Below are positions 52,853 to 54,650 of a stretch of 64,000 nucleotides of DNA, one piece after another. Made by a program: the position numbers and the translations under genes. The stretch comes from Escherichia coli (lineage in GTDB: Bacteria; Pseudomonadota; Gammaproteobacteria; Enterobacterales; Enterobacteriaceae): the NCBI RefSeq assembly GCF_965641715.1, contig NZ_OZ282453.1. One strand, 5' to 3'. Numbering within the stretch: the stretch's first letter is position 1; each line of letters opens with the position of its first letter. The notes beneath the pieces are model-generated. The model had not been told where the DNA came from and made no database searches. It saw only the letters and a program-made list of their open reading frames with translations.

Positions 52853-52894
52853 TTCTTCATCAGGGAATTCAGGGAATTGAACATCAGAACAGGG

Positions 52895-53650
52895 ATGTGC
52901 GCTTTTTTATTGAGCTTAGTGCAGCCTGCACAGGCCACCAGCTTTACCGAATATCTGCCAATGAGTGGCAGCGAATATGCGCAAAAGCGGGCGCTGAAAC
53001 CTCTCCTGACCATGCCTTATTATACCGAGCAAACTTGGCATTTTAGAAAAATCGGCGTTGCTGGCGTGACGCTTGAGAAGATGCCAAATGAGGAGGATTA
53101 CTGGCAATTAACCGCTAAAGACCGCGCCGGTAAATCCTGGACGGTGCCAGTGGGGTTGCTGGCAAATATGGCGGGCAAAGGGCAGCTCTATCGCGCCGAT
53201 CTGGATCGTAACGGCATTCAGGATCTGGTTATCTGGTTGCCAAGTGCCGCTAATGGTCTGGCGCCCTATGCACATTTAATCCTCATGACGTTCACGCGCG
53301 AAGGCCGTCCCTGTGTCTTTGAACCCTGGGGATTCTACACCGCAAACAAAACTGGCGTAGATGATTTGCTGGATTTGCAAGGCAATGGTCACACGCAATT
53401 GCTGGATATGCAGTTTAATTCTGGTTACTGGATAACCAGTCTGTATCAGGTAAAAGACGCCAAATGGCAGCGTGTTCACGGCTGGTTTGGCAAGTTAAGC
53501 TATCCCGCGCTCACGCGATTTACTTATACCCCCAACCGTAAACTCGTCCTCAAACCCATCGCCGGACGCGACCCGCAAACGGAAGATCTGGCGCTGACGC
53601 AGCGTTGCTTGATAAAGGGGGATGTGCTTGATGGGGTGAACCAGAACTGA
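52895..53650 (+). CDS. Hypothetical exported protein (about 251 aa, predicted signal peptide)
   Basis: ORF 52877..53650 with TTG start; more likely ATG at 52895 giving MCAFLLSLVQPAQA|TSF (signal-peptide-like, AQA cleavage motif); two D-x-D/Q-x-N-G repeats (DLDRNGIQDLV, DLQGNGHTQLLD); no family recognised. Confidence 0.65.
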   Translation: MCAFLLSLVQPAQATSFTEYLPMSGSEYAQKRALKPLLTMPYYTEQTWHFRKIGVAGVTLEKMPNEEDYWQLTAKDRAGKSWTVPVGLLANMAGKGQLYRADLDRNGIQDLVIWLPSAANGLAPYAHLILMTFTREGRPCVFEPWGFYTANKTGVDDLLDLQGNGHTQLLDMQFNSGYWITSLYQVKDAKWQRVHGWFGKLSYPALTRFTYTPNRKLVLKPIAGRDPQTEDLALTQRCLIKGDVLDGVNQN

Positions 53651-53703
53651 CTTTTTGCAGAGTGGCTATGTGGATTTTGGGGGTAATTATATAGCGCACA
53701 AGT

Positions 53704-53741
53704 GTTTACATATTGTGAACTTGGATTTGATGAGCTATAGT
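53704..53741 (+). promoter_or_regulatory. Candidate promoter with overlapping operator palindrome upstream of higB-like gene
   Basis: Imperfect inverted repeat GTTTACA-tat-TGTGAAC (53704..53720) overlapping a TTGTGA -35-like hexamer, 17-bp spacer, then TATAGT (53736..53741); about 70 bp upstream of toxin ATG. Confidence 0.35.
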
Positions 53742-53811
53742 TTCCGAACACATAAGGATAGAACTCGCAGATGTGGCTGTTTACTTACTATAAGGAAGTT
53801 AAAACTTAAAA

Positions 53812-54123
53812 ATGCACATCATTTCTAAAGCGCCATTTGAAGAGTGTGCGCGCAAATATCCTAACGACGCTCTGGCTCTACACTCATTGTATCGGGTTAT
53901 TAAGGAAACGGATTTTTCTACACCAGAAGAAATGCGAACGGCGTTTCCCAACCTCGACAATTTTAGATATCGCAACAAATGGTACGTTCTGGATGTCGGC
54001 GGGAACAATCTTAGGGTTATTGCCTACATAAACTTTGTTAATAAGCGGTTCTTTGTGAAGCACATAACGAATCACGCAGAGTATGACAAACTGACACGTT
54101 ACTACAGAGAGAACAAAGAATGA
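53812..54123 (+). CDS. HigB-like type II toxin (RelE/ParE superfamily mRNA interferase, 103 aa)
   Basis: 103 aa; shares the HigB pattern FPNLDNF.Y....YVLDVGGNNLRVIAY...........KHITNHAEYD with K-12 HigB as recalled; stop overlaps downstream ATG (ATGA). Confidence 0.8.
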   Translation: MHIISKAPFEECARKYPNDALALHSLYRVIKETDFSTPEEMRTAFPNLDNFRYRNKWYVLDVGGNNLRVIAYINFVNKRFFVKHITNHAEYDKLTRYYRENKE

Positions 54124-54539
54124 CTGCTAATGCTGCACGCGCTGTTAAAGCAACAAGAGAACTGGTCAATGCAGTCCCCTTTCTGGGAGGCAGTGACTCA
54201 GAAGATGATTATCGTGAAGCACTGGAACTGGTCGAATATTTGATTGAAGAAGATGACACCAATCCACTTATCGACTTTCTGGCGAGCCGCATTGCAGAGT
54301 ATGAAAACAACAACGAAAAGTTTGCAGAGTTCGACAAAGCCGTTGCGGCAATGCCGGTTGGCGTGGCGTTACTTCGCACGTTGATTGATCAACATAATCT
54401 GACCTATGCGGATTTGAAGAACGAAATCGGCTCTAAATCCCTGGTCAGTCAGATTTTGTCTGGACAACGATCCCTGACAATATCCCACATTAAGGCACTT
54501 TCAGCCCGATTTGGCGTTAAGCCGGAATGGTTTCTTTGA
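54120..54539 (+). CDS. HigA-like antitoxin (HTH XRE-family, 139 aa)
   Basis: 139 aa; VPFLGGSDSEDDYREALELVEYLIEED...NPLIDFLASRIAEYE...EFAEFDKAVAAMPVGVALLRTLIDQHNLTYADL...IGSKSLVSQILSGQRSLT parallels HigA; translationally coupled to toxin. Confidence 0.8.
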   Translation: MTANAARAVKATRELVNAVPFLGGSDSEDDYREALELVEYLIEEDDTNPLIDFLASRIAEYENNNEKFAEFDKAVAAMPVGVALLRTLIDQHNLTYADLKNEIGSKSLVSQILSGQRSLTISHIKALSARFGVKPEWFL

Positions 54540-54574
54540 TTTTGACTGATGCCAAACCCCAGATAGCCCGATGC

Positions 54575-54650
54575 GCAGTGCTTATCGGGCCTGCATAGTT
54601 CGTGCGACATGTAAGCCGGATAAGGCGTTCACGCCGCATCCGGCACGGTT
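54575..54650. repeat. REP/BIME element pair between higA-like gene and ascB
   Basis: gcccgatgcgcagtgcttatcgggcctgc and gccggataaggcgttcacgccgcatccggcac palindromes. Confidence 0.6.

What the first reader, a model, noticed from the sequence alone, without database searches (positions are those of the whole stretch)
53651..53811. Autoregulation-style promoter architecture upstream of the HigB-like toxin
An imperfect inverted repeat GTTTACA-tat-TGTGAAC overlaps a -35-like TTGTGA that sits 17 bp before TATAGT. Type II toxin-antitoxin operons are typically repressed by the antitoxin binding a palindrome overlapping the promoter, so this geometry supports the pair being a functional, self-regulated module rather than a decayed remnant.
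Basis: inference. Interest (0 to 1): 0.3.

Follow-up and report, generated by a model that had tools for sequence, protein, structure and literature searches.

The report
HigA operator over the higBA promoter
The small inverted repeat is real and is the deeply conserved binding site (operator) through which the HigA antitoxin most likely shuts off its own toxin-antitoxin operon: an ordinary self-regulated module, except that Escherichia has lost the second operator its relatives keep.

Summary
The sequence is as described: GTTTACA-tat-TGTGAAC (53704-53720) overlaps TTGTGA (53713-18), 17 bp before TATAGT (53736-41), 70 nt upstream of a PF09907 HigB / HTH_3 HigA pair. In the window alone this is not beyond chance (3 such repeats versus 2.4 expected).

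Comparison settles it. The same 17-mer lies upstream of higB in all 25 loci examined, from Escherichia to Photorhabdus, Xenorhabdus and a Desulfuromonadales MAG. Conservation is 0.95 against 0.41-0.50 in the flanks, although synonymous sites are saturated. A -10 hexamer always starts 32 nt after the site.

A second E. coli haplotype has an otherwise unalignable upstream region but keeps the 19-nt block exactly.

Across paralogues the form GTT-NN-CA-N3-TG-NN-AAC is kept, and the central NN changes with the HigA recognition helix. K-12 higBA, known to be autorepressed, has the same form.

New here: relatives carry two operators, O1 over -35 and O2 abutting -10. Escherichia has lost O2 and gained a leader insertion. 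In 5,426 complete E. coli genomes, 1,091 hold higB and 2,508 hold higA, so about 1,417 keep higA without the toxin; in the one such allele examined the deletion also removed O1 and the promoter.

This is an ordinary kind of element and of low interest.

The parts
53704..53720 (.). Operator O1: GTTTACA-tat-TGTGAAC, a 7-3-7 inverted repeat and the inferred HigA dimer binding site. The exactly conserved block in the second E. coli haplotype is 53702-53720.
   Evidence: It matches the consensus arms at 13-14 of 14 positions in 23 of the 25 loci (12/14 in L035; an imperfect 10/14 O2 is extra in L016). The majority-base fraction is 0.95, against 0.41 and 0.50 in the flanks.
53713..53718 (+). -35-like hexamer TTGTGA, made of the last spacer base plus the right arm of O1.
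   Evidence: The homologous positions read TTGTAA, TTGTCA, TTGGCA or TTGAAA in relatives.
53736..53741 (+). -10 hexamer TATAGT, 17 nt after the -35 and starting 32 nt after the O1 start.
   Evidence: The hexamer sits at the same offset in 18 of the 19 anchored loci (in L035 it lies 2 nt closer), with the pattern T-A-x-x-x-T kept (0.88). It reads TATAAT in Klebsiella plasmid L041.
53747..53749 (+). Predicted transcription start, about 6-8 nt after the -10. This would give a leader of about 64 nt.
   Evidence: Inference from sigma-70 promoter geometry only. It has not been mapped.
53742..53758 (.). The position where relatives carry operator O2 (GTTYACA-TAA-TGTAAAC, abutting the -10). Here it reads TTCCGAACACATAAGGA, which is degenerate, and the right arm is missing.
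   Evidence: O2 is 38 nt after the O1 start in all two-site loci except L035 (36 nt) and is absent in both E. coli haplotypes. One allele (GW-AmxH19) still reads TATAGTGTTC.
53779..53795 (.). Weak operator-like 17-mer GTTTACTTACTATAAGG: 10 of 14 arm matches but only 3/7 self-complementary. It is either a remnant or a chance match and overlaps the ribosome-binding site.
   Evidence: (direct repeat D2). It is not conserved in the M21170-type haplotype.
53771..53809 (+). A 12-codon upstream ORF (MWLFTYYKEVKT*). Its ATG sits at the position of the ancestral higB ATG, and it ends 2 nt before the present higB ATG.
   Evidence: It is present in all 6 window-type E. coli sequences and absent (GTT for ATG) in the M21170 type. 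Its function is untested.
53792..53798 (+). Shine-Dalgarno-like AAGGAAG, 13 nt before the ATG. The M21170 type has only 5 nt there; the window type carries 8 extra nt within 53799-53811.
53812..54123 (+). higB, a 103-aa toxin of Pfam family PF09907 (HigB_toxin).
   Evidence: E = 9.4e-23; 38% identity to K-12 HigB. Purifying selection is shown.
54120..54539 (+). higA, a 139-aa antitoxin with a C-terminal HTH_3 domain. Its start overlaps the higB stop (ATGA). The recognition-helix segment is GSKSLVSQILSG (residues 104-115).
   Evidence: 46% identity to K-12 HigA; 5ifg_B, E = 2.5e-35.

Best explanation
The inverted repeat at 53704-53720 is operator O1 of this higBA operon. A HigA dimer, alone or carrying HigB, most likely binds its two half-sites through the C-terminal HTH_3 domains. 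The half-site centres are 10 bp apart, which is one helical turn. The right half-site is fused to the -35 hexamer (T-TGTGA), so a bound dimer would keep RNA polymerase off the TTGTGA-17-TATAGT promoter and repress higB-higA transcription. When HigA is depleted, the promoter would fire.

Shown here: the site, its position relative to the -10, and its covariation with the HigA recognition helix are conserved. Inferred: binding, repression and the transcription start.

The ancestral layout is O1 over -35, 15 nt, the -10, then O2 abutting the -10 and covering the start site. The Escherichia copy keeps only O1, so repression here probably rests on one operator.
For: The gene pair is a YgjN/YgjM-type HigBA: PF09907 toxin, HTH_3 antitoxin, toxin-first order with an ATGA overlap. 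HigA is 46% identical to K-12 HigA and matches solved HigA chains at E = 2.5e-35.

In all 25 related loci a 17-mer matching GTTTACA-N3-TGTAAAC lies upstream of higB. In 23 of the 25 it matches at 13-14 of 14 arm positions, and the best site in L035 matches at 12. In two-site loci O2 follows O1 by exactly 38 nt, except L035 at 36.

In alignment A3, 14 of 17 O1 positions are invariant and no flank or spacer position is. Conservation is 0.95 for O1 and 0.88 for the -10, against 0.41 and 0.50 for the flanks. Meanwhile pS is 0.8-1.0 and pN 0.13-0.16 in the two genes.

The M21170-type E. coli haplotype has a diverged upstream region but keeps GTGTTTACATATTGTGAAC exactly, with a -10-like TACTAT at the same spacing.

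In E. coli complete genomes, the count with higB (1,091) equals the sum of the two O1-bearing upstream types (747 + 344).

Covariation between recognition helix and half-site:
- SKSLVSQILSG goes with GTTTACA, including a 48%-identical Desulfuromonadales HigA.
- SKSMVSRVLSG/NG and SRSYVSRILKG go with GTTGCCA/GTTGACA.
- KKSLVSRILSG goes with GTTTCCA.
- SKSNVSNILNG goes with GTTTTCA.

The K-12 higBA promoter was mapped and shown to be repressed by HigA (PMC2814082). [quoted passage not shown]
Against: There is no binding, reporter or transcription-start data for this locus or for any member of its orthologue group.

The repeat is imperfect (6/7), and in the window alone it is statistically unremarkable.

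O2 is destroyed in Escherichia, so the strength of repression is unknown.

The -35 (4/6) and -10 (5/6) are only moderate matches. No terminator separates the operon from the upstream gene, so read-through transcription could bypass the operator.

The covariation table rests on five helix classes and about a dozen independent loci.
Confidence: 0.85

Rival explanations
1. A working operator in a module that is decaying in Escherichia. O1 still binds HigA, but control is weakened or no longer matters, and the locus is on its way to the orphan-higA state.
For: O2 is lost in both E. coli haplotypes, while 18 of 22 non-Escherichia loci keep two sites. The window type has a 13-nt gap between the Shine-Dalgarno sequence and the ATG, plus an upstream ORF. 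higA is present in 2,508 genomes but higB in only 1,091 of 5,426. The O157 EC10 allele has a deletion running from the O1 start to about codon 95 of higB.
Against: higB and higA are full length, with pN far below pS against relatives, and HigA is identical between the two E. coli haplotypes despite pS of 0.10. O1 is unchanged in 7 of the 8 sampled E. coli alleles, including the most divergent of each type; the eighth has one substitution at the last base. Pantoea and Mixta also run on a single operator.
Confidence: 0.1
2. The block is conserved only as promoter DNA (the -35 plus an upstream element) and is not a protein-binding operator.
For: The right arm contains the -35. The block is AT-rich and sits at about -45 to -29 relative to the predicted start.
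Against: A -35 or UP element does not need dyad symmetry. The left arm is as conserved as the right. The same 17-mer recurs downstream of the -10 as O2, where it has no promoter role. Both arms change together with the HigA recognition helix in paralogues.
Confidence: 0.03
3. A chance inverted repeat and a chance promoter-like match.
For: Within the window alone neither is beyond expectation.
Against: Cross-genus conservation, the fixed geometry and the covariation argue against chance. The motif occurs exactly once in 64 kb.
Confidence: 0.01
4. An RNA or DNA hairpin, or the binding site of an unrelated regulator such as CRP.
For: A 7-bp stem can be drawn, and TGTGA is a CRP half-site.
Against: The fold is not better than shuffles (z = -1.22, 22 of 200 shuffles fold as well), and the repeat lies upstream of the predicted start with no T-run. 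No TCACA partner lies 6 nt after TGTGA. The site travels with higBA into unrelated genomic and plasmid contexts.
Confidence: 0.01

Closest known systems
E. coli K-12 higBA (ygjNM) promoter-operator region
   Same: It belongs to the same protein families (HigB 38% and HigA 46% identical) and has the same toxin-first order. Its operators have the same 7-3-7 form: GTTGCCA-atc-TGGCAAC and ATTGCCA-att-TGTCAAC. One overlaps the -35 and the other abuts the -10 (TATCAT). A single promoter was mapped and shown to be repressed by HigA (PMC2814082).
   Different: The central dinucleotide of the half-site differs (GC in K-12, TA here), matching a different recognition helix (SMVSRVL versus SLVSQIL). The O1-O2 start distance is 29 nt in K-12 and 38 nt in this subfamily, so the -35 is the left arm in K-12 and the right arm here. 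That is my reading of the sequence, because the paper's Figure 1B is not held. The window copy has no O2.
Orthologous higBA of other Enterobacterales and of Klebsiella IncF plasmids (uncharacterised)
   Same: HigA is 65-82% identical with an identical recognition helix. O1 is identical or differs at 1 of 14 arm positions, and the -10 offset is the same.
   Different: They keep O2 and a short leader (O2 ends about 18 nt before the ATG). Escherichia lost O2 and has 33-41 extra leader nucleotides carrying a new Shine-Dalgarno sequence.
Salmonella SehAB / SehB antitoxin
   Same: SehB is a HigA-type antitoxin with an N-terminal dimerisation domain and a C-terminal HTH, 46% identical to K-12 HigA. 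It is reported to bind two palindromes over the -35 and -10 (PMC7160566).
   Different: The primary operator description comes from a retracted paper (PMC3868539), so it is used only as a lead.
Proteus vulgaris Rts1 HigBA with operators O1 and O2
   Same: It has two inverted-repeat operators over the -35 and -10 that are bound by HigA dimers, and HigB only modestly affects binding (PMC8138530).
   Different: According to PMC7160566, its HigA has the opposite domain order, with the DNA-binding domain N-terminal. From my own knowledge, not tested here, its toxin belongs to a different Pfam family. The resemblance is in mechanism, not in family membership.

Membership tests
Type II toxin-antitoxin HigBA, YgjN/YgjM subfamily | The toxin belongs to Pfam PF09907 (HigB_toxin, RelE-like). 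| tested here: met
   E = 9.4e-23, 80.7 bits against a cut-off of 27; 38% identity to K-12 HigB over 99 aa.
Type II toxin-antitoxin HigBA, YgjN/YgjM subfamily | The antitoxin has an N-terminal toxin-binding/dimerisation domain and a C-terminal HTH_3 DNA-binding domain. | tested here: met
   HTH_3 at residues 85-138; 46% identity to K-12 HigA over 134 aa; 5ifg_B at E = 2.5e-35, covering residues 9-138.
Type II toxin-antitoxin HigBA, YgjN/YgjM subfamily | Toxin gene first, with the antitoxin immediately downstream in one operon. | tested here: met
   higB 53812-54123 and higA 54120-54539, overlapping by the 4 nt ATGA.
Type II toxin-antitoxin HigBA, YgjN/YgjM subfamily | Inverted-repeat operator(s) overlapping the operon promoter. 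| tested here: met
   O1 at 53704-53720 overlaps the -35 and is conserved across genera. The family-typical second operator at the -10 is absent here.
Type II toxin-antitoxin HigBA, YgjN/YgjM subfamily | Transcriptional autorepression by the antitoxin binding the operator. | not testable with these tools
   Shown for K-12 only (PMC2814082). Here it is inferred from conservation and from helix-operator covariation.
Type II toxin-antitoxin HigBA, YgjN/YgjM subfamily | The toxin inhibits growth by ribosome-dependent mRNA cleavage and is neutralised by the antitoxin. | not testable with these tools
   Only an intact ORF and purifying selection could be shown (pN 0.13-0.16 against saturated pS).
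Two-operator (O1 + O2) HigA promoter layout | A second 17-mer operator starts 38 nt after O1 and directly abuts the -10. | tested here: not met
   Window 53742-53758 does not match. The best other candidate (53779-53795) has 10 of 14 arm matches and is only 3/7 self-complementary.

The most novel reading that the evidence does not exclude
The Escherichia hycI-ascB higBA may have been rewired. The start-site-proximal operator O2, kept in most other genera examined, was destroyed. A 33-41-nt leader insertion supplies a new ribosome-binding site. In the window type it also creates a 12-codon upstream ORF that begins at the ancestral higB ATG and stops 2 nt before the present one. On this reading, toxin output now depends on a single -35 operator plus translational coupling.

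Family-wide, the central dinucleotide of the half-site (GTT-NN-CA) appears to be set largely by one recognition-helix position (Gln111 here; Arg or Asn in paralogues). That would give a simple specificity switch that insulates HigA paralogues living in the same cell.
Probability: 0.3. Interest if true: 0.4.

Novelty: new member of a known kind. Interest (0 to 1): 0.25.

Why it matters
The result turns a guess from raw sequence into a well-supported annotation. It gives the operator and promoter of a higBA module carried by about 20% of complete E. coli genomes, by many Enterobacterales and by Klebsiella IncF plasmids: about 500 of the 2,517 matching plasmid records fall in the 60-80% identity band.

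It provides an explicit operator motif, GTTYACA-N3-TGTRAAC, and a family template, GTT-NN-CA-N3-TG-NN-AAC. With these one can annotate YgjM-type HigA regulons, predict cross-talk or insulation between paralogues, and design specificity-swap experiments.

It also documents natural single-operator and operator-less (orphan higA) states of one locus. These are convenient material for asking how much each operator contributes.

None of this changes the accepted picture of type II toxin-antitoxin autoregulation.

Tried and rejected
- **Chance.** I tested this by shuffling the intergenic region. The repeat alone is not significant, so the case rests on comparison.
- **Second intact operator in the window.** Neither the expected O2 position (53742-53758) nor the GTTTAC-containing 17-mer at 53779-53795 qualifies. 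The direct repeat D2 is not conserved in the other haplotype.
- **Alternative -35.** TTTACA (53705-53710, 5/6) has no -10 partner at a 16-18 nt spacing.
- **RNA hairpin or terminator.** z = -1.22 with no T-run.
- **CRP-type site.** There is no second half-site.
- **Other copies of the motif in the 64-kb window (a wider HigA regulon).** Only one match with 2 mismatches, at 2759, which is within chance: 10 of 100 shuffles give at least 2 matches.
- **Literature.** No paper in the library contains the operator strings. The K-12 structural papers (Yang 2016, Xu 2019, Jadhav 2020) are not held, so their operator fragments could not be compared. The Salmonella sehAB operator paper is retracted and was used only as a lead.
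- **A strict residue-to-base code** (Gln-A, Arg-G, Asn-A). The Klebsiella plasmid paralogue with an Arg helix has TGGAAAC, so only class-level covariation is claimed.
- **Origin of the leader insertion.** Whether it is a tandem duplication of the -10/O2 segment remains unresolved; the ATAAGGA repeat 38 nt apart is weak evidence.

Full report
**What is in the window.** The interval 53651-53811 is exactly the intergenic region between a 257-aa hypothetical gene (52877-53650, no Pfam match) and a two-gene operon.
- The first gene (53812-54123, 103 aa) is a PF09907 HigB_toxin (E = 9.4e-23).
- The second (54120-54539, 139 aa) has a C-terminal HTH_3 domain. Its start overlaps the toxin's stop by ATGA.
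- The proteins are 38% and 46% identical to E. coli K-12 HigB and HigA. The antitoxin matches solved HigA chains at E = 2.5e-35.
- The surroundings are hycG-hycH-hycI upstream and ascB-ascF downstream, so this is an Escherichia chromosome. The best match is 98.2% identical to an environmental E. coli.

**Checking the observation.**
- GTTTACA lies at 53704-53710, tat at 53711-53713 and TGTGAAC at 53714-53720, with 6 of 7 arm positions complementary.
- TTGTGA lies at 53713-53718, followed by 17 nt and TATAGT at 53736-53741.
- The consensus scan finds this pair and no other + strand site in 1.5 kb.
- On its own this is not beyond chance. The intergenic region holds 3 such repeats against 2.4 expected, and 40% of shuffles do as well. 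Promoter-like matches number 3 against 1.9 expected.

**Comparison within E. coli.** Complete E. coli genomes hold this locus in several states.
- higB occurs in 1,091 of 5,426 genomes.
- 747 genomes have the window-type upstream region. 344 have a second type, as in strain M21170, where higBA follows hycI directly without the hypothetical gene. The two counts add up to exactly 1,091.
- The two upstream regions are so different that megablast homology starts only at the higB ATG. Yet GTGTTTACATATTGTGAAC is identical in both, and a -10-like TACTAT sits at the same 17-nt spacing.
- I sampled eight alleles, including the most divergent of each type. The 17-mer is unchanged in seven and has one substitution, at the last base, in the eighth.

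**Comparison across genera.** A search of one genome per species with a HigA alignment returned 30 loci. They come from Leclercia, Mangrovibacter, Kluyvera, Citrobacter, Phytobacter, Pluralibacter, Yokenella, Mixta, Pantoea, Photorhabdus, Xenorhabdus and a Desulfuromonadales MAG.
- In every locus with an identifiable higB (25 including the window and two E. coli alleles), a 17-mer matching GTTTACA-N3-TGTAAAC lies upstream. In 23 of the 25 the match is 13-14 of 14 arm positions, and the best site in L035 matches at 12.
- Eighteen loci have two copies, O1 and O2. Their starts are exactly 38 nt apart, or 36 in the MAG.
- The layout is O1, 15 nt, a -10 hexamer (TATAGT, TATCAT, TAGAGT and similar), O2 directly abutting it, then about 18 nt and the ATG.
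- The -10 starts 32 nt after the O1 start in 18 of the 19 anchored loci (L035 is 2 nt closer), and the window matches this offset: 53704 + 32 = 53736.
- In alignment A3, 14 of 17 O1 positions are invariant. None of the 14 preceding or 15 following positions is.
- Across 19 anchored loci the majority-base fraction is 0.95 for O1 and 0.88 for the -10, against 0.41 and 0.50 for the flank and the spacer.
- This conservation is not due to short divergence times. Between the window and other genera, synonymous sites of higB and higA are saturated (pS 0.8-1.0) while pN is 0.13-0.16. The same figures show that both genes are under purifying selection.
- In a Klebsiella IncFIB plasmid orthologue the same positions read TTGTAA-17-TATAAT, 10 of 12 matches with an extended TG.

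**Who reads the repeat.** The recognition-helix segment GSKSLVSQILSG is invariant in 14 of the 15 orthologues aligned. It is also identical in the 48%-identical Desulfuromonadales HigA, whose operators keep GTTYAC...GTAAAC. Paralogues with other helices keep the frame GTT-NN-CA-N3-TG-NN-AAC and the O1 / -10 / O2 layout, but change the central dinucleotide.

| Locus | Recognition helix | Operators seen |
|---|---|---|
| Window group and Desulfuromonadales MAG | SKSLVSQILSG | GTTYACA / TGTRAAC |
| K-12 | SKSMVSRVLSG | GTTGCCA-atc-TGGCAAC and ATTGCCA-att-TGTCAAC |
| Two viral-collection contigs | SKSMVSRVLNG | GTTGACA-cat-TGGCAAC |
| Providencia plasmid | SRSYVSRILKG | GTTGCCA-tat-TGGCAAC |
| Klebsiella plasmid | KKSLVSRILSG | GTTTCCA-taa-TGGAAAC |
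| Serratia plasmid | SKSNVSNILNG | GTTTTCA-act-TGAAAAC, twice |

- Both arms change together with the protein. That is what direct readout by an HTH dimer predicts. It is not what a bare promoter element or an unrelated factor predicts.
- I claim only class-level covariation, not a strict residue-to-base code.

**Mechanism.** The half-site centres are 10 bp apart, and the right half-site is fused to the -35 (T + TGTGA).
- A HigA dimer on O1 would occlude the -35. In relatives a second dimer on O2 would cover the start site.
- For the K-12 paralogue a single promoter was mapped. It was active only without the locus and was repressed by HigA supplied in trans (PMC2814082).
- HigA and the HigBA complex are reported to bind that operator with similar nanomolar affinity (Jadhav 2020, as cited in PMC8138530).
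- For this locus, binding, repression and the start (predicted at about 53747-53749) remain inferences.

**What differs in Escherichia.** Neither E. coli haplotype has O2.
- At the expected place the window reads TTCCGAACACATAAGGA. One allele still reads TATAGTGTTC, the first four bases of O2, and the right arm is gone.
- Downstream, GGATAGAACTCGCAGATG aligns with the relatives' GGATGGAACGAACGCAAGATG, which ends at their higB start codon.
- Escherichia therefore carries 33-41 extra nucleotides between the ancestral ATG position and the present ATG, including a strong AAGGAAG.
- In the window type the ancestral ATG (53771) now opens a 12-codon ORF ending at 53809, 2 nt before higB. Eight further nucleotides stretch the gap between the Shine-Dalgarno sequence and the ATG to 13 nt.
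- Pantoea and Mixta show the converse single-operator state, with O2 only. One operator is evidently viable.

**How far 'functional, not decayed' holds.** The ORFs are intact and constrained, and O1 is maintained.
- However, higA is present in 2,508 genomes and higB in 1,091, so about 1,417 carry an orphan higA.
- In the O157:H7 EC10 allele the deletion runs from the start of O1 to about codon 95 of higB. It removes the operator, the promoter and the toxin together.
- The module in the window is a complete copy of a locus that is frequently reduced in the species.

**Verdict.** The element is a new, uncharacterised member of a well-known kind.
- I found no paper in the held library containing this operator sequence.
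- The additional findings are the family-wide operator template, the helix-operator covariation and the loss of O2 in Escherichia. They are useful but unsurprising.
- Interest is low, at 0.25.

Noticed in passing
window 54120-54539; L002 (O157:H7 EC10) 2352-2841; L004: higA is found in 2,508 of 5,426 complete E. coli genomes but higB in only 1,091, so about 1,417 genomes keep a full-length orphan antitoxin. In EC10 the deletion runs from the first base of O1 to about codon 95 of higB, leaving higA 70 nt after the hypothetical gene with no promoter of its own.
   Followed up: partly
window 53771-53811: A 12-codon upstream ORF (MWLFTYYKEVKT*) starts at the position of the ancestral higB ATG and stops 2 nt before the present ATG. 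There are also 8 extra nucleotides that put the AAGGAAG Shine-Dalgarno sequence 13 nt from the ATG. Both are conserved in the six window-type E. coli alleles sampled and absent from the M21170 type. This could mean translational coupling or reduced toxin translation.
   Followed up: partly
window 52877-53650: A 257-aa hypothetical protein with no Pfam match and a hydrophobic N-terminus lies between hycI and higBA. It is present in window-type genomes, absent in the M21170 type (where higBA directly follows hycI), and reduced to a 61-aa ORF in strain S1-IND-01-B (L004).
   Followed up: no
window 54540-54650: REP/BIME-like repeats (GCCGGATAAGGCGTTCACGCCGCATCCGGC and a GCCCGATGCGCAGTGCTTATCGGGCC stem) fill the gap between higA and the convergent ascB. 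They probably account for the many short megablast places per genome (median 9).
   Followed up: no
L006 (MAG labelled Collinsella sp.), L021 (MAG labelled Citrobacter sp.): These short MAG contigs carry a HigA match 99% identical to the window's HigA, and L006 also encodes the adjacent hypothetical protein. They are probably E. coli sequence mis-binned into those MAGs.
   Followed up: no
L044 (Klebsiella plasmid p49210-107.8) 100-1102; L042 (Pantoea plasmid): Some plasmid HigA paralogues (about 50% identity) have no HigB upstream. In L044 the gene follows a RelE/ParE toxin and a second HTH gene. In L042 it follows what looks like an IS remnant. Tblastn matched 2,517 plasmid records, 2,061 of them from Klebsiella.
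   Followed up: no
L034 (Geobacteraceae MAG) about 1900-2456: A 5'-truncated higB plus higA lies immediately downstream of two near-identical tRNA-like sequences. This suggests an integration site next to tRNA genes.
   Followed up: no
L013 2120-2193; L007 about 2100-2125: In L013 a single operator sits where O2 normally is, preceded by TTGTGAAATGCAAA. That sequence lies upstream of O1 in Leclercia L007, which looks like a deletion fusing O1 and O2. It is another natural single-operator variant.
   Followed up: no
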